This document shows positions 5,912 to 11,771 of a stretch of DNA of 12,850 nt, piece after piece. The notes beneath the pieces are model-generated. The model did no database searches. It saw only the letters and a program-made list of their open reading frames with translations, and was not told where the DNA came from. The stretch's first letter is position 1. Every line of letters begins with the position of its first letter. The position numbers were made by a program, and so were the translations under genes. Source of the DNA: a virus. Lineage: Duplodnaviria > Heunggongvirae > Uroviricota > Caudoviricetes. Location of the stretch: IMG/VR virus record IMGVR_UViG_2663762948_000002. One strand, written 5' to 3'.

Positions 5912-6307
5912 CTAACCTCGCATGTCAAAGCCAGATTTCTGAAAATCTCTGTAGACTTCCGGATTGTTGAAGGCCGGAAATTTGGCTTTATGAGCTGCGG
6001 ACTTTATCGCTTCGCAATAGGCTTTATCACCGTTACTGGTAGATATTTTTAACGCCGTGCCATCCTGAGAGAATTCCATATGCAACCTGCATTTTTTCCC
6101 TTTCCAGTTATGCGGCTCATCAAGTTTGGCATTAATTGCAGCTCTGATTCCCCGCGCTTGCGCCCCCCATTCATCCTGATCATCCCAGCGTCCTGAACTG
6201 CAACTACCTGTAGCAGTAGTTTTGTGGCAATCTGAAGGGTGTAAAGGTGTGCATCCCGCAACAAAACCGACCCAAAAAGTCAACATAACGATTTTCTTTA
6301 ATCCCAC
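5912..6307 (-). CDS. Predicted outer-membrane lipoprotein with a TolA domain III-like C-terminal domain (131 aa, GTG start).
   Basis: Signal peptide MGLKKIVMLTFWVGFVAGC with lipobox VAGC and Thr at +2; GAGGAG ribosome-binding site 6 nt upstream of the GTG; C-terminal roughly 80 aa align with the TolA C-terminal domain as I recall it (GK.C.L ... DG ... C ... AK.P ... P.VY..F) and with the downstream paralog. Confidence 0.75.
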   Translation of the reverse strand: MGLKKIVMLTFWVGFVAGCTPLHPSDCHKTTATGSCSSGRWDDQDEWGAQARGIRAAINAKLDEPHNWKGKKCRLHMEFSQDGTALKISTSNGDKAYCEAIKSAAHKAKFPAFNNPEVYRDFQKSGFDMRG

Positions 6308-6457: not shown

Positions 6458-6886
6458 TCAGGGTTTAAAATCCAGCACCCCATTTTGAAATACTTTATAT
6501 ACTTCCGGCGAAGGGGGGGCAGGTATATCAGCATTCTTTATCGCATTCATCGCTTCACGACATAAATCGAGGTCTCCACTTTCTCTTTTAACCTCCAGTA
6601 GAAGGCCATTCGGGGCCATATGCATTCTCAGTGTACACTCTTTTCCTGAATACTTACTCGCATCCCCGAACTGTTTTTCGATGGCGCTCTTGATTTGATG
6701 GGCATACAGACGGATATCCTCACTAACATCAGAAGTACGTTCAGATGAACTCACATACTGTGTCTCTATTGCTTTATCGGAGTAATATGATGTACGGTCA
6801 TGATAATTTGTCGATACAGCATCAGTGCACCCGATAATAATCCCACTAATAATCAACGTAAGAATTGATGCGCTACGAAAACCCAT
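6458..6886 (-). CDS. Predicted outer-membrane lipoprotein with a TolA domain III-like C-terminal domain (142 aa), paralog of 5912-6307.
   Basis: Signal peptide MGFRSASILTLIISGIIIGC with lipobox IIGC and Thr at +2; GAGGA ribosome-binding site upstream of the ATG at 6884-6886; C-terminus (IKSAIEKQFGDASKYSGKECTLRMHMAPNGLLLEVK...DLCREAMNAIKNADIPAPPSPEVYKVFQNGVLDFKP) strongly resembles E. coli TolA domain III, which by recall ends ...KPPSQAVYEVFKNAPLDFKP. Confidence 0.8.
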   Translation of the reverse strand: MGFRSASILTLIISGIIIGCTDAVSTNYHDRTSYYSDKAIETQYVSSSERTSDVSEDIRLYAHQIKSAIEKQFGDASKYSGKECTLRMHMAPNGLLLEVKRESGDLDLCREAMNAIKNADIPAPPSPEVYKVFQNGVLDFKP

Positions 6887-6945: not shown

Positions 6946-7477
6946 ACAGCGAATCAGATCAAATAAAACGCACATTTGTTAACATTTACACAAAGTCTGC
7001 GTGGGATATTCTGAAAGAATATCCATAATGTGGAGAGAATCTATTGAAGTGCATGGTGCCGGGTGCCTCCCGGTGAACAAAATGTTCGTGATACCTGTCG
7101 GCGACAGAAAAGGTTAATGGTATCACCCCACCGCACAGGGGGATTCACCATGCAGGAGTTTTCTTAGCAAACTCACTGCGCGCCCGGCAACTCCCAACCA
7201 CATAAAATGCGGAGTTTGTGGTATTTATGCATATAACTCGCAGGAATTATCTTAAAAAACTGATGTCGATCCGGATTAAAAAGAAGCAGGTCATCATCAG
7301 ATGACTGGAAAAAAGGAAAACAAAAAATACTCATCATACAGTTTTGATTGCAGGGATGAGCCTGCTATGCACAATATGCAGAATATAAGCAAGATAAAAA
7401 TATGCAGGCATATTATTTCGGATTTTGTTATTAACACAACCTTTTTAATAATCATTTGGCATACAATAAACCAGCCC

Positions 7478-8473: not shown

Positions 8474-8760
8474 AAATGACCTTTCTTTCTCCAGATTTCT
8501 TGTGTGCGAAAAACCCCTTCAGCATGCATCAGGCGCAATTCTTCTTTGGTGTAATCGCTGGTTTTTACCCGCCCGTCGATTAGATCGTGGCATGAGCTAC
8601 AGGCTATCGCCGCCTGCATATCGTGTGGTTTTGTCGCTGTTCCGCACGTCCCCGCCAGCCTGTAATGCGCCAGCACAGAGGTTTCGGGATTGTGATTGCA
8701 GTAGCCAGGGATTCTGATCTGGCACATCTGGCCTTTAGCCGCTTTACGTAAATTCACCAT
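8470..8760 (-). CDS. YbcO-like nin-region protein (Cys-rich putative nuclease), 96 aa.
   Basis: Aligns by recall with E. coli DLP12 YbcO (LRKAA.G..CQ.RIPG.CN.NPETSVLAH.RL.G.CGT.TKP.D...IACS.CHD.ID.R); conserved Cys/His pattern; translationally coupled to its neighbours on both sides. Confidence 0.7.
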   Translation of the reverse strand: MVNLRKAAKGQMCQIRIPGYCNHNPETSVLAHYRLAGTCGTATKPHDMQAAIACSSCHDLIDGRVKTSDYTKEELRLMHAEGVFRTQEIWRKKGHL

Positions 8761-9359
8761 TACGCAAACTCCAGTAGTTGTGCGGCCACATTTTCAACTT
8801 CCTCATGAGAGGAGAATTTACGAAACAGAATCCAGTTCCACAGCACATTCAGTACAGATTTATAAACCTGCTGAAACTCGACTTCGTCCATATTCGCAAA
8901 AGCGATGGATTTTGCCCGACGCCCACGGCTACCGTCCGGATAAATATGCTCGGTGTAAAATCCGGCCTGAATGGTTACCCACTCGCGGAAAGCCTCAAAC
9001 GACTTTAGCAACGCCGTATCCCGGGTTCTACGAGTCGCAACGGTGTTAAGGTATTGCTCTGCGGCATCACTCAGGGCTGGCGTGTGTTCCCGACCAACTG
9101 ATTCGCACAGGTAATCAACGAAACCAGACAGCAGTTCTCGTTCGCGAGGCGTGATCGCCCCACCGACCGGAGTCCAGTAATCGAATCCCAGTTGCAGGAG
9201 TTTGAAAAAACGCTTGTGGAATGCGTAGTTACGCACACGCTTAAAGTCTGCGTGTATCCACTCACCTATTTTGATTTGATGCAGAAAATCGCAACTCTCC
9301 GGCGTCGCCGGGAGAAGTAAACCAGAAGAAGTTTGTTTGACCAGTTGTATATGCGCCAT
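8760..9359 (-). CDS. Lambdoid nin-region protein of unknown function (199 aa); possibly the DUF1367-type family, unverified.
   Basis: Intact 199-aa ORF with its stop overlapping the YbcO-like start; position upstream of YbcO/Q as in nin regions; no motif I can assign with confidence. Confidence 0.55.
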   Translation of the reverse strand: MAHIQLVKQTSSGLLLPATPESCDFLHQIKIGEWIHADFKRVRNYAFHKRFFKLLQLGFDYWTPVGGAITPRERELLSGFVDYLCESVGREHTPALSDAAEQYLNTVATRRTRDTALLKSFEAFREWVTIQAGFYTEHIYPDGSRGRRAKSIAFANMDEVEFQQVYKSVLNVLWNWILFRKFSSHEEVENVAAQLLEFA

Positions 9360-9417
9360 TTCTCAATCTCTCGATGGCGCAGCGCAGCAGATGCCAGTTG
9401 TTCAGGCTGACGAATAA

Positions 9418-9445
9418 AGTATAAATAAACTGGCTATGGTGTAAA
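9418..9445 (-). promoter_or_regulatory. Possible sigma70 promoter upstream of the nin-Q operon.
   Basis: On the minus strand: -35 TTTACA (plus 9440-9445), 16-bp spacer, -10 TATACT (plus 9418-9423), about 60-75 nt upstream of the 9359 ATG. Confidence 0.3.
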
Positions 9446-9639
9446 GCCCCACATAGCATGAACAAACACTACATATCAAATAGCTGGTACAAGGATAGAA
9501 ATACGACATTTATTATTAAAAACGATTAGATAAATTACATTTTAATGTTATGCAAAAGTTCTTTTTTATCATAACATTTCAATAAAAGCATTACAGATGC
9601 AATCATCCCGTCATCATCAATTATTTAAGGTGGTTAAAC

Positions 9640-9726
9640 ATGGAAAATAACAAGTTCGCACATCTCGCTCCTTTTTTATCCGTAATCCTTTTCGCTTGTT
9701 GTTTTATATGGGCATTATTTTTATAA
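9640..9726 (+). CDS. Candidate small hydrophobic protein (28 aa, MENNKFAHLAPFLSVILFACCFIWALFL); possible small membrane protein or type I toxin-like peptide.
   Basis: ATG at 9640 preceded by ribosome-binding site AAGGTGG (9628-9634, 5-nt spacer); a single predicted TM helix; lies in an otherwise ORF-free AT-rich region. Too short for statistical support. Confidence 0.3.
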   Translation: MENNKFAHLAPFLSVILFACCFIWALFL

Positions 9727-10117
9727 AGTAGCCACATGATAAGTTGCTGGAATCATATTTCCCACTCAAGTCATTAACATTTGATAAGATATATCTAAAA
9801 GGACGCCTTTACATTATTTATGTGTATATAATTTATTTATATACACAGTAAAGGTATCCTGGGAAAATATTTATCGTTAAAAAATACATCATAAATAATC
9901 AAGCTGAAATTTCAGAACACAACTAATACACACAATAAGGTTCAGTAACAATAATCTATGTGGACTACATCGAGATTTTTTGATTAAACTTTAATAACTT
10001 ATTCCTAACACACAGAATGCATAAACTAAAAGTAAAACAAATAGTTATACGAAAAACAACCATATTTATTATATCTTCTCCTCTAATCAACATATCAATT
10101 ATGTGTTTCATAACAGC

Positions 10118-10157
10118 TTGACATAACCCTCAAAAACACGCATTTATAATGCATGTT
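10118..10157 (+). promoter_or_regulatory. Promoter of the yeaR-like gene with an overlapping NsrR-type operator (11-1-11 inverted repeat).
   Basis: AACACGCATTT-A-TAATGCATGTT at 10135-10157 closely matches the NsrR consensus as I recall it; TATAAT at 10145-10150 lies inside the operator; TTGACA at 10118-10123, although the 21-bp spacing to that -10 is non-canonical. Confidence 0.5.
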
Positions 10158-10172
10158 TTTGAGGAGGTGGTT

Positions 10173-10511
10173 ATGACACACAAGAGAATTCCTAAAGATT
10201 GGGTAATCAAACGCTCAACTCCGTTCTTCACAAAAGAGAACGTACCTTCAGCGTTATTAACACATCATAATACAGCAGCAGGTGTTTTTGGGCAGTTGTG
10301 CGTAATGGAAGGCACTGTAACATATTATGGTTTTACTGATGAGAATGCTACTGAACCGGAGATAAAAGTAGTCATTAATGCTGGCGCTTTTGCAACAAGC
10401 CCACCACAATACTGGCACCGTGTTGAACTAAGCGATGATGCTCAGTTTAATATTAACTTTTGGGTCGCTCCAGACTTCTCGGGCGAAAAAGTCTATAGCA
10501 CCAAAAAATAG
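10173..10511 (+). CDS. YeaR-like protein (DUF1971 family), 112 aa from the ATG at 10173. The ORF opens at 10149 but the ribosome-binding site supports 10173.
   Basis: Ribosome-binding site GAGGAGGTGG 3-4 nt before the ATG at 10173; the protein shares motifs with E. coli YeaR by recall (RSTPF, SVM.G.V.Y.G..DE...EP, FNI.F.VAP); the gene is AT-rich. Confidence 0.75.
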   Translation: MTHKRIPKDWVIKRSTPFFTKENVPSALLTHHNTAAGVFGQLCVMEGTVTYYGFTDENATEPEIKVVINAGAFATSPPQYWHRVELSDDAQFNINFWVAPDFSGEKVYSTKK

Positions 10512-10540
10512 ATGATCATATTAAAAATGCTTTAACAGTC

Positions 10541-10577
10541 AGACCCGGCAGGGCTATCCCCGACGGGTCTCATTTTT
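10541..10577 (+). terminator. Rho-independent terminator downstream of the yeaR-like gene.
   Basis: Stem AGACCCG / CGGGTCT (10541-10547 and 10564-10570) with a structured loop, followed by CATTTTTG. Confidence 0.55.
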
Positions 10578-10725: not shown

Positions 10726-10815
10726 TCAATCAGAAAGCCGCTCCATAAGAACAACAGCAAGACAATAAATTGCCATTACAGCCGCAATAGCTAGCGCACA
10801 TTTGAGAACCAGCAC
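10726..10815 (-). CDS. Candidate small hydrophobic protein (29 aa, GTG start, MLVLKCALAIAAVMAIYCLAVVLMERLSD).
   Basis: Consensus ribosome-binding site AGGAGG 5 nt upstream of a GTG (plus 10813-10815); one predicted TM helix with a charged C-terminal tail; it is in a different frame from the longer 74-aa ORF in the track, which looks spurious. Confidence 0.3.
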   Translation of the reverse strand: MLVLKCALAIAAVMAIYCLAVVLMERLSD

Positions 10816-11234: not shown

Positions 11235-11771
11235 ATGCCATTTGTTATTTATGTGTTTACTATCAGTGCCTTTGCGCTCGGACTCGCGGAATTTGTCCCC
11301 ATTGGGCTGACAGACGTTATGGCTCAGGGGTTGTGTGTGGGTGTGGAGCAGACCGGGGCAGCGGTTACAACCTATGCACTGGGGGCAACGTTCGCGGCAC
11401 CCGTACTGTCTGCGCTGACAGCAAGCTGGAGCCGGAAAAATGTAATGCTTACAACTGCCGTTGTGTTTACTGCCGGTAGTCTGGCGGCCGCGTTTGCAGC
11501 CACATTACCTCAGCTCCTGTTAGCGCGGTTCATTGCTGGTCTGGGACACGGCCTGTTTCTGGCTGCGGCATCCAGTACCGCAGCTCGTCTTGCTGGACCG
11601 GGTAAAGCAGGCAGAGCGGTGGCTGTGGTATTTGGTGGCTTTACTCTGGCGATGGCAATCGGCGTACCGCTGAGTACATGGTTGCCCGTGGAGACATTGG
11701 CACGAATGCAGATTATGTATGGAAACTGCAGGCCACTCTGGGTGCGTTGGGAATACGGAATGATTACGTGA
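11235..11771 (+). pseudogene. Truncated MFS-family transporter gene (N-terminal roughly 155 aa of an expected roughly 400 aa protein).
   Basis: ATG at 11235 with AGGAG ribosome-binding site; N-terminal half resembles MFS transporters (about 5 TM helices, loop motif LTASWSRKN); the reading frame ends after a non-MFS-like tail, only 67 nt before the next gene, with no continuation in another frame. Confidence 0.6.

What the first reader, a model, noticed from the sequence alone, without database searches (positions are those of the whole stretch)
10118..10577. Stand-alone yeaR-like gene with a near-consensus NsrR operator overlapping its -10
A YeaR/DUF1971-family gene sits alone, with no yoaG-like partner downstream, between an NsrR-type inverted repeat (AACACGCATTT-A-TAATGCATGTT, one mismatch per half-site to the consensus as I recall it) and an intrinsic terminator. 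The gene is AT-rich and the protein is clearly diverged from the E. coli core YeaR, so it is probably a horizontally acquired paralog that has kept or acquired nitric oxide-responsive control. YeaR-family function is still poorly defined, which adds to the interest.
Basis: partly seen in the sequence, partly recalled or inferred. Interest (0 to 1): 0.5.

Follow-up and report, generated by a model that had tools for sequence, protein, structure and literature searches.

The report
Prophage-borne nitric-oxide-regulated DUF1971 gene
A small gene carried as cargo by a Rac-like prophage of E. coli is the counterpart of a Salmonella nitric-oxide stress gene (STM1808) and still has the host NsrR repressor's binding site over its promoter, so it is a real but fairly ordinary new member of a known stress regulon.

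Summary
Window 10173-10511 (+) encodes a 112-aa DUF1971 protein (Pfam E 2.3e-26). It has its own promoter region, a strong Shine-Dalgarno sequence and a terminator hairpin, and no yoaG follows it. The repeat AACACGCATTT-A-TAATGCATGTT (10135-10157) has 2 mismatches to the NsrR 11-1-11 consensus (0.01 expected per window). It scores 20.6 bits on a matrix built from 27 published CFT073 sites, which is mid-range and above hmp.

The main evidence is comparative. In 53 of 80 species loci, covering nearly all the Enterobacteriaceae, a strong NsrR-type site (median 28 bits) lies 38-66 bp (50 of 53 at 38-50 bp) before the ATG of the orthologue. The layout is constant: -35, about 11 bp, then the site, with the -10 inside its left half. 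Another 20 loci (Vibrionaceae, Shewanella) place the gene directly after norVW.

The protein is not a YeaR orthologue (43% identity). It belongs to the STM1808 / PDB 3DL3 subfamily (79-82% identity, H32 and H82 kept), whose members normally stand alone.

The gene sits in the nin-region cargo slot of Rac-like prophages in about 8.5% of complete E. coli genomes. The window's operator allele is a derived, weaker and more palindromic variant. NsrR binding, the transcription start and the protein's biochemistry remain untested. Verdict: new member of a known kind, modest interest.

The parts
10118..10123 (+). -35 hexamer TTGACA
   Evidence: Read directly from the sequence. It lies 11 bp upstream of the NsrR site. 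The same geometry occurs in 52 orthologous loci, which have TTTACA, TTGACG or TTGCCT 17-18 bp before the hexamer at site positions 7-12. It is invariant among 8 E. coli/Shigella alleles.
10135..10157 (.). NsrR-type 11-1-11 operator AACACGCATTT-A-TAATGCATGTT
   Evidence: 2 mismatches to the consensus, 0.01 expected per window. It scores 20.6 bits on a matrix built from 27 CFT073 sites (PMC5320621, Table 4); the next best site in the window scores 11.8. Right half 12.2 bits, left half 7.6 bits, with C at the near-invariant T5. Orthologues have a site at -38 to -66 in 53 of 80 species.
10128..10164 (.). extended palindrome (17-nt arms) around the operator; the right arm reaches into the Shine-Dalgarno sequence
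   Evidence: as RNA, -18.2 kcal/mol. It is specific to this allele: sister alleles have TTTTATGGG or TTTTATAGG in place of TTTTTGAGG.
10141..10150 (+). two overlapping candidate -10 hexamers: CATTTA (10141-10146, 17 bp from the -35, homologous to the TATTTT/TATATT of orthologues) and TATAAT (10145-10150, 21 bp from the -35)
   Evidence: Both lie inside the operator. The transcription start was not determined.
10161..10167 (+). Shine-Dalgarno sequence GAGGAGG, 5 nt before the ATG
   Evidence: The stretch GGAGGTGGTTATG is invariant in all alleles.
10173..10511 (+). CDS for a 112-aa DUF1971 cupin-fold protein of the STM1808 / 3DL3 subfamily
   Evidence: dN/dS is 0.04-0.27 between E. coli alleles. 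RefSeq protein WP_000149055.1.
10541..10577 (+). intrinsic terminator: hairpin AGACCCG...CGGGUCU followed by a U-tract
   Evidence: A compensatory change is seen in the EcPF15 allele.
8760..9359 (-). context: DUF1367 gene (nin-region gene of the prophage), the constant left neighbour of the cargo slot
   Evidence: Pfam E 1.3e-97. It is the same neighbour in all four prophage variants examined.

Best explanation
Window 10118-10577 is a self-contained, single-gene transcription unit carried as cargo (a 'moron') in the nin region of a Rac-like lambdoid prophage of E. coli.

The product is a 112-aa cupin-fold, probably metal-binding, protein. It is the E. coli counterpart of Salmonella STM1808 and of the Vibrio fischeri protein in PDB 3DL3.

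Proposed regulation: the host's NsrR, an iron-sulfur Rrf2-family repressor, binds the 23-bp 11-1-11 inverted repeat at 10135-10157. That repeat covers the -10 region of the promoter, so bound NsrR excludes RNA polymerase. Nitric oxide nitrosylates the NsrR cluster and the repressor leaves. A short-leader mRNA of about 0.4 kb is then made, translated from a strong Shine-Dalgarno sequence and ended at the hairpin at 10541-10577. The protein then helps the lysogen cope with nitrosative stress by an unknown biochemical activity.

Shown here: the gene, its family and subfamily, purifying selection, prophage carriage, the site's match to known NsrR sites, and its positional conservation in front of orthologues.

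Inferred: NsrR binding, NO induction, which -10 is used, and any phenotype.
For: - Link to STM1808: the Salmonella orthologue lies just after nhaB-dsbB, where I recall STM1808 to be. STM1808 is cited as an NsrR-regulon member with a role in virulence (PMC7527575).
- Operator: 2 mismatches to the consensus, 0.01 expected by chance. It scores 20.6 bits, about 9th of 27 published sites on leave-one-out scoring, above hmp at 17.9. Random sequence gives 0-1.5 such hits per Mb.
- Footprinting: 53 of 80 species loci have a site of at least 15 bits (median of all 80 loci 28) at -38 to -66 (50 of 53 at -38 to -50), against a median best of 9.5 bits in the other ~5 kb of each locus.
- Promoter layout: conserved -35, 17-18 bp, then TATTTT/TATATT/CATATT inside the left half-site, in 52 loci.
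- Calibration: the S. enterica subsp. diarizonae site scores 20.5 bits, the same as the window.
- Independent link to NO: 20 further loci have the gene directly downstream of norV-norW. Three more have NsrR-like sites in front of a two-gene operon, two of them beside an nsrR-like gene.
- The gene is live: dN/dS is 0.04-0.27 between alleles, and synonymous sites are saturated against Kluyvera and Salmonella at 79-82% protein identity.
- Prophage cargo: the Rac gene set (recE, racC, kilR, sieB, ydaF, trkG, lysis genes, terminase) surrounds it. The slot next to the DUF1367 gene is the same in three other prophage variants whose downstream cargo differs. The gene is in 458-466 of 5426 complete E. 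coli genomes and is absent from K-12's deleted Rac.
Against: - There is no experimental datum for this locus.
- The left half-site carries C at position 5, the most conserved T of the motif (-4.8 bits). The window allele is therefore 5-6 bits weaker than sister alleles and 8-10 bits weaker than most orthologues.
- The hexamer at the position homologous to the orthologues' -10 is CATTTA (2 of 6). The perfect TATAAT is 21 bp from the perfect -35, so promoter strength and the transcription start are uncertain, and the consensus scan calls no promoter here.
- The operator is a polymorphism hot spot among E. coli alleles. This could mean relaxed constraint.
- The upstream DNA at 28-30% GC is the kind that H-NS silences (general knowledge).
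- The key Salmonella paper (Karlinsey et al. 2012) and the yeaR promoter paper (Lin et al. 2007) were not held. STM1808's zinc binding and the roles of H32/H82 therefore rest on my memory.
Confidence: 0.78

Rival explanations
1. In this particular allele the operator is a decayed relic. The gene is expressed constitutively or semi-constitutively because the left half-site no longer binds NsrR well.
For: The change T5>C costs 4.8 bits, and the left half scores 7.6 bits against 14.4 in the EBJ003 allele. The operator and its flanks vary at 14 of 36 alignment columns among eight alleles, against 1 of 60 columns outside. That is above the synonymous divergence of the gene, 0.05-0.11.
Against: The right half-site is strong (12.2 bits, the upper quartile of known half-sites). 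The whole site still outscores hmp and equals the S. diarizonae orthologue's site. A single 11-bp motif is reported to suffice for NsrR binding (Partridge et al. 2009, as cited in PMC5320621). The core GCATTTATAATGCATGTTTT is almost invariant among alleles. The eight alleles were picked for divergence in this stretch, which inflates the contrast.
Confidence: 0.12
2. The 37-bp palindrome acts mainly through something other than NsrR. Candidates are another dimeric regulator, a DNA cruciform, or an RNA hairpin that hides the Shine-Dalgarno sequence in transcripts reading in from upstream.
For: The arms extend 7 bp beyond the NsrR 23-mer, and the right arm includes the GAGG of the Shine-Dalgarno sequence. 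As RNA it folds at -18.2 kcal/mol. Extended palindromes with different flank sequences recur in Citrobacter, Yokenella and Salmonella orthologues.
Against: The extension is absent from sister E. coli alleles (-11.6 kcal/mol, no Shine-Dalgarno pairing) and from most orthologues such as Kluyvera, Leclercia and Klebsiella. What is conserved across 53 species is the NsrR 23-mer itself. With either candidate -10, transcription would start inside or after the palindrome, so the left arm would not be transcribed. The right-flank cluster and two of the three left-cluster changes that make the window allele more symmetric are what template switching at a quasi-palindrome would produce. That is a mutational explanation, not a functional one, and it is my inference.
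Confidence: 0.05
3. The unit is essentially silent cargo. A 21-bp spacer between the consensus hexamers and H-NS coating of the AT-rich DNA would keep it off whatever NsrR does.
For: No canonical promoter is called. The upstream 813 bp are 30.5% GC. The adjacent island is decaying in this window: 1294 bp spanning the MFS 3' half and the gamma-glutamylcyclotransferase gene are deleted relative to strain 13KWH46.
Against: The ORF is intact and under purifying selection in about 458 genomes, with all family-invariant residues kept. The -35, the Shine-Dalgarno sequence and the start codon are invariant across alleles. The gene is retained while the downstream cargo is swapped.
Confidence: 0.05

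Closest known systems
Salmonella enterica STM1808 (NsrR-regulon gene for a DUF1971 protein; Karlinsey et al. 2012, Mol Microbiol 85:1179, known here only through citations in PMC7527575 and PMC7082413 and from memory)
   Same: 79% protein identity, with the same length and no indels up to residue 100. H32 and H82 are conserved. It is a single-gene unit with an NsrR 11-1-11 site over the promoter and the same spacing from -35 to site.
   Different: STM1808 is a core chromosomal gene after nhaB-dsbB. The window gene is prophage cargo in a minority of E. coli strains. Its site starts at -38 rather than -50 from the ATG, which resembles the Kluyvera/Leclercia type. The operator is weaker, and the DNA is far more AT-rich.
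E. coli K-12 yeaR-yoaG operon
   Same: Same Pfam family (DUF1971) and cupin fold. An NsrR 11-1-11 site lies upstream (AAATGGTATTTAAAATGCAAATT; PMC5320621 Table 4). Strongly induced in nitrate-grown CFT073 cultures, where the NsrR regulon is de-repressed.
   Different: Only 43% identity. yeaR has a yoaG partner and, according to the title of Lin et al. 2007, NarL activation. The window has no yoaG. Only 6-of-7 single NarL-like heptamers were found, and no paired arrangement was searched for.
PDB 3DL3, 'tellurite resistance protein B' (structural-genomics entry; I recall it as Vibrio fischeri)
   Different: In Aliivibrio fischeri ES114 the orthologue lies after norV-norW-fpr on the same strand, with no NsrR-type site directly upstream. 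The 'TehB' name is a misnomer, because there is no methyltransferase domain.
Phage morons wired to host regulators (own-knowledge examples: lambda bor and lom, Gifsy-2 sodCI)
   Same: An autonomous promoter-gene-terminator unit inserted between phage modules. It is oriented against the flanking nin, Q and lysis genes, which are on the opposite strand, and its base composition differs.
   Different: Here the inferred control is by the host's NO sensor. I found no paper describing a prophage-borne NsrR-regulated gene.

Membership tests
Pfam PF09313 (DUF1971) | Profile match above the gathering threshold | tested here: met
   92 bits against a cut-off of 23.1, E 2.3e-26, covering profile positions 1-80 of 80.
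STM1808 / 3DL3 subfamily of DUF1971 | High identity over the full length to the stand-alone proteins of about 112 aa in Salmonella, Citrobacter, Klebsiella and Vibrio, and clearly closer to them than to YeaR | tested here: met
   73-82% identity to 21 members, against 43% to YeaR. PDB 3DL3 matches at E 3.5e-59, against 1.6e-24 for YeaR 3BB6.
STM1808 / 3DL3 subfamily of DUF1971 | Conserved His32 and His82, recalled as the zinc ligands needed for function in STM1808 | tested here: met
   H31, H32, C43 and H82 are invariant in 22 sequences including the window protein. Metal binding itself cannot be tested here.
STM1808 / 3DL3 subfamily of DUF1971 | Genomic association with the nitric-oxide response | tested here: met
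   76 of 80 species loci: 53 with an NsrR site directly upstream, 3 with NsrR-like sites before a two-gene operon, and 20 directly after norVW.
NsrR regulon (operator) | 11-1-11 inverted repeat matching AANATGCATTT-N-AAATGCATNTT | tested here: met
   2 mismatches. 20.6 bits, within the range of 27 published sites, which score 8.4-30.6 on leave-one-out.
NsrR regulon (operator) | Site placed so that the repressor blocks the promoter | tested here: inconclusive
   Both candidate -10 hexamers lie inside the site and the geometry is conserved in 52 orthologues. The transcription start is unknown and the consensus hexamers are 21 bp apart.
NsrR regulon (operator) | NsrR binding and derepression by NO or in an nsrR mutant | not testable with these tools
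   Needs EMSA or ChIP and reporter or RNA measurements. CFT073, the strain used for ChIP-seq, does not list this site.
YeaR orthologue (yeaR-yoaG operon) | yoaG (DUF1869) immediately downstream | tested here: not met
   tblastn with YoaG finds no hit near the gene. A terminator follows the stop codon.
YeaR orthologue (yeaR-yoaG operon) | Orthologue-level identity to YeaR | tested here: not met
   43% identity. The strains also keep the core yeaR (inference; yeaR is a K-12 and CFT073 gene).
TehB SAM-dependent methyltransferase (the name some RefSeq records now give it) | Full-length match including the methyltransferase domain | tested here: not met
   NCBIfam PRK12335 gives 49 bits against a cut-off of 303, and only profile positions 11-106 of 289 are matched. 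The protein is 112 aa long.
Phage moron | Own promoter and terminator, located between phage modules, with atypical composition | tested here: met
   Expression from the prophage state was not tested.

The most novel reading that the evidence does not exclude
Rac-like prophages convert about 8% of E. coli, and some Shigella, to higher nitrosative-stress tolerance. They do so by delivering a second, STM1808-type DUF1971 gene that is plugged into the host NsrR regulon. In this reading the operator is evolving fast: clustered substitutions make it more palindromic but a poorer NsrR site, and this tunes how leaky the gene is in the lysogen.
Probability: 0.3. Interest if true: 0.5.

Novelty: new member of a known kind. 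Interest (0 to 1): 0.35.

Why it matters
If the unit works as inferred, a common E. coli prophage carries a host-regulated nitric-oxide defence gene. That would be a case of lysogenic conversion relevant to survival in inflamed gut, urinary tract or macrophages, where STM1808 is reported to matter for Salmonella virulence.

It also provides natural operator alleles, from strong to weakened half-site, for studying NsrR half-site requirements.

The comparative result is that this DUF1971 subfamily is tied to NO-response genes in 76 of 80 species, through either NsrR or norVW. This sharpens the case for working out what the cupin protein actually does.

None of this overturns current understanding.

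Tried and rejected
- Fur control: Kluyvera, Leclercia, Pantoea, Buttiauxella and Photobacterium orthologues have a Fur-box-like GATAATGAGATTTATTATC (13-17 of 19 matches) upstream of the -35. The window's best match is 12 of 19, at a different place, which is background level. Rejected for the window.
- NarL or NarP activation as at yeaR: only isolated 6-of-7 heptamers were found, and I did not search for a paired 7-2-7 arrangement. The spacer region is not conserved among orthologues. Not supported.
- Known RNA family in the promoter or leader: Rfam finds nothing there at E up to 0.1.
- Shine-Dalgarno-sequestering hairpin as a conserved device: present only in the window allele.
- yoaG elsewhere in the window: none.
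- Plasmid carriage: only distant chromosomal-type homologues (about 72-75% DNA identity) on large Vibrio, Klebsiella, Salmonella and Photobacterium replicons.
- Phage records: three hits, but these are PHASTER-predicted prophages from clinical isolates, not isolated virions.
- Literature: no paper mentions WP_000149055. No paper links NsrR to a prophage DUF1971 gene. Karlinsey 2012 and Lin 2007 could not be read.
It was rerun without it.
- Donor of the E. coli copy: the nearest species-level proteins are 82% identical (Kluyvera, Pantoea sp. IMH) with saturated synonymous sites, so the donor is unidentified.

Full report
**What is in the sequence**

The + strand between 10118 and 10577 holds these elements in order:
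- a perfect TTGACA at 10118-10123;
- a palindrome with 17-nt arms at 10128-10144 and 10148-10164;
- GAGGAGG at 10161-10167;
- an ATG at 10173 that opens a 112-codon frame ending at 10511;
- a hairpin at 10541-10570 followed by CAUUUUUG.

It has two mismatches to AANATGCATTTNAAATGCATNTT. It is the only such match in the window, where 0.01 are expected by chance.

The protein matches Pfam DUF1971 at 92 bits against a cut-off of 23.1. K-12 YoaG finds nothing in the window. The gene is 41% GC, and the 813-bp spacer upstream is 30.5% GC.

**Is the repeat an NsrR site?**

I built a symmetrised weight matrix from the 27 11-1-11 sites listed for E. coli CFT073 (PMC5320621, Table 4).
- The window site scores 20.6 bits. 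On leave-one-out scoring this places it about ninth of 27, above hmp at 17.9 and close to ygbA and yeaR. The next best 23-mer in the window scores 11.8.
- Random sequence gives 0 such hits per Mb at 50% GC and 1.5 per Mb at 30% GC.
- The right half (AACATGCATTA on the other strand) scores 12.2 bits, the upper quartile of known half-sites.
- The left half scores 7.6 bits because it has C where nearly all known sites have T at position 5.

**Comparative evidence**

A scan of one genome per species returned 80 loci that encode a close relative.
- In 53 of them, which are nearly all the Enterobacteriaceae plus two Photobacterium, the best matrix hit in the 250 bp before the ATG is at least 15 bits (median of all 80 loci 28).
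- These hits start 38 to 66 bp before the ATG, and 50 of the 53 start at 38 to 50 bp.
- The best hit in the remaining ~5 kb of each locus has a median of 9.5 bits.
- The layout is constant. A -35-like hexamer (TTTACA, TTGACG or TTGCCT) lies 17-18 bp before TATTTT, TATATT or CATATT, and that second hexamer occupies positions 7-12 of the NsrR site.
- The window has the same spacing: TTGACA, 11 bp, then the site.
- The S. enterica subsp. diarizonae site scores 20.5 bits, the same as the window.

Most of the 27 loci without such a site are still tied to nitric oxide:
- In 20 of them (Vibrio, Photobacterium, Aliivibrio, Shewanella, Agarivorans and an Oceanospirillales genome) the gene lies directly after norV-norW on the same strand.
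- In three more (two Neptunomonas and Parendozoicomonas), sites of 22-24 bits precede a two-gene operon that ends with the DUF1971 gene. In the two Neptunomonas loci an nsrR-like Rrf2 gene lies next door.

In total, 76 of 80 loci link this subfamily to the NO response.

**Which protein is it?**

It is only 43% identical to K-12 YeaR, but 73-82% identical to 21 stand-alone proteins from Salmonella, Kluyvera, Citrobacter, Klebsiella, Raoultella, Vibrio, Aliivibrio, Shewanella and Photobacterium.

The closest solved structure is 3DL3, at E 3.5e-59 and 81% identity in the structural alignment. YeaR (3BB6) matches at E 1.6e-24. The N-terminal domain of Haemophilus TehB (3M70) matches at E 5.4e-11.

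The Salmonella orthologue follows nhaB and dsbB. From memory of the LT2 gene numbering, that is the position of STM1808. STM1808 is annotated 'putative cytoplasmic protein; NsrR regulon' and is credited with a role in virulence (PMC7527575). Some Salmonella cluster members carry the same 'cytoplasmic protein' name.

From memory of Karlinsey et al. 2012, which I could not read, STM1808 binds zinc through H32 and H82. Both residues are invariant here.

The NCBIfam TehB model is matched only over its N-terminal third, at 49 bits against a cut-off of 303. The 'TehB family protein' label in some RefSeq records is therefore misleading.

**Where does it sit?**

The window is E. coli DNA, 100% identical to many chromosomes. 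In strain 13KWH46 the surrounding genes are terminase, ParB-like, trkG, lysis genes, a DUF1133 gene (annotated antiterminator Q in the phage records), DUF1364, DUF1367, then the DUF1971 gene. Next comes an island (MFS transporter, gamma-glutamylcyclotransferase, LysR, DUF2254, BCCT transporter). After that come the replication and immunity genes, sieB, kilR, racC and recE. This is a Rac-type prophage.

K-12's cryptic Rac has lost everything between ydaW and rzpR, and so lacks the gene.

Other Rac-like prophages keep the DUF1971 gene next to the DUF1367 gene but carry different cargo after it. One has queH. Others have a Hok/Gef gene followed by a KilA-N gene.

The gene is present in 458-466 of 5426 complete E. 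coli genomes, in Shigella, and in three deposited 'phage' records. Those records are PHASTER-predicted prophages, not isolated virions.

The gene lies on the opposite strand from the nin, Q and lysis genes. With its own promoter region and terminator it fits the description of a moron.

It is under purifying selection. dN/dS is 0.04-0.27 between E. coli alleles, and synonymous sites are saturated against Kluyvera and Salmonella.

**Allelic variation of the operator**

Among eight E. coli and Shigella alleles the -35, the Shine-Dalgarno sequence and the start codon are invariant. In contrast, 14 of 36 alignment columns across the operator and its flanks vary.

Sister alleles read AAGGTGCATTTATAATGCATGTT (26.5 bits) or AAGGTGCATTTATAATACATGTT (25.6 bits). 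These resemble the orthologues more closely.

The window allele differs from them by two clusters of three adjacent changes: GGT>CAC in the left half and ATG>TGA in the right flank. The right-flank cluster makes that flank the exact complement of the left flank. This lengthens the palindrome to 17-nt arms while lowering the NsrR score.

I read this as the signature of template switching at a quasi-palindrome. That is an inference, and the T>C change in the left cluster is not explained by it.

The exact window allele of the 67-bp promoter region is in 143 genomes, and the EBJ003 allele is in 99. The eight alleles were chosen for divergence in this stretch, so the contrast is somewhat inflated. 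In the single pair window versus EBJ003, the operator still differs at 6 of 37 positions, against 8 of about 189 in the rest of the upstream spacer.

**Open points**

The promoter is odd. The perfect -35 and the perfect TATAAT (10145-10150) are 21 bp apart. The hexamer at the homologous -10 position (10141-10146, CATTTA) matches the consensus at only 2 of 6 positions. Both hexamers lie inside the operator, so the occlusion logic holds either way. Promoter strength and the transcription start are unknown.

NsrR binding, NO induction, metal binding and any phenotype are inferred from relatives.

**Verdict**

This is a prophage-borne orthologue of Salmonella STM1808 that has kept the NsrR operator of its chromosomal relatives, in a weakened and more palindromic allele.

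It is a new member of a known kind. It is of modest interest for lysogenic conversion and as a set of natural operator variants.

Noticed in passing
window 10726-10815 (-): Unannotated 29-codon ORF encoding VLVLKCALAIAAVMAIYCLAVVLMERLSD, with AGGAGG 5 nt before a GTG start. Between the window and the EcPF15 allele it shows 8 synonymous and 3 conservative changes, so it looks like a real small hydrophobic peptide, possibly a type I toxin. EBJ003-type prophages have an annotated Hok/Gef gene in the same slot. There is no Pfam hit.
   Followed up: partly
window 10128-10164; L026-L060 (Citrobacter, Yokenella); L091 1405-1450: The palindrome around the NsrR 23-mer extends 7-11 bp further, with different, mutually complementary flanks in different lineages. 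Examples: CCTCAAA/TTTGAGG, GGCATTTAT/ATAAATGCC, GGCATCTAT/ATAGATGCC, GGCACCTAT/ATAGGTGCC, TCATCTAT/ATAGATGA, GTGATTGA/TTAATCAC. It is not seen in Kluyvera, Leclercia or Klebsiella, nor at K-12 yeaR. The cause is unexplained: mutational bias or a longer footprint.
   Followed up: partly
L004-L025, L056, L076 (about 83-100 bp before the ATG): Fur-box-like GATAATGAGATTTATTATC (13-17 of 19 matches to the consensus) just upstream of the -35 in Kluyvera, Leclercia, Pantoea, Pseudescherichia, Silvania, Buttiauxella and two Photobacterium orthologues. This suggests dual iron and NO control there. It is absent in the window and in the Citrobacter, Klebsiella and Salmonella types.
   Followed up: partly
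L031-L082 (20 loci, e.g. L069 and L059): In Vibrio, Photobacterium, Aliivibrio, Shewanella and Agarivorans the orthologue is the gene directly after norV-norW (norV-norW-fpr in Aliivibrio) on the same strand.
   Followed up: yes
L070 1815-2848: In Parendozoicomonas a 191-aa SAM-methyltransferase-like ORF precedes the DUF1971 gene, behind two NsrR-like sites. The arrangement looks like a split version of the fused Haemophilus TehB.
   Followed up: no
window 11683-11684: Relative to strain 13KWH46, the window lacks 1294 bp (L001 15786-17079). The MFS transporter gene is truncated (178-aa ORF at 11235-11771) and the gamma-glutamylcyclotransferase gene is gone. The window also lacks that strain's two IS3 copies.
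   Followed up: yes
window 6997-7183 (-): Rfam STnc100 sRNA, 86.6 bits against a gathering score of 47, between the TolA-like genes and the Q-like gene.
   Followed up: no
window 5912-6307 (-) and 6458-6886 (-): Two prophage ORFs with TolA C-terminal domains (E 1.3e-14 and 2.4e-23). They may be further cargo affecting entry of TolA-dependent phages or colicins.
   Followed up: no
window 9360-10117: About 760 bp of 28-31% GC DNA with no ORF of 50 codons or more and no Rfam hit, between the DUF1367 gene and the promoter. It includes a perfect 11-nt inverted repeat, TGTGTATATAA/TTATATACACA, at 9821-9847.
   Followed up: no
window 10118-10150: Perfect TTGACA and perfect TATAAT are separated by 21 bp. 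All E. coli alleles share GCATTTATAATGCAT, whereas 44 of 52 orthologues have TTAAAT at the TATAAT position and a TATTTT/TATATT-type hexamer 4 bp upstream.
   Followed up: partly
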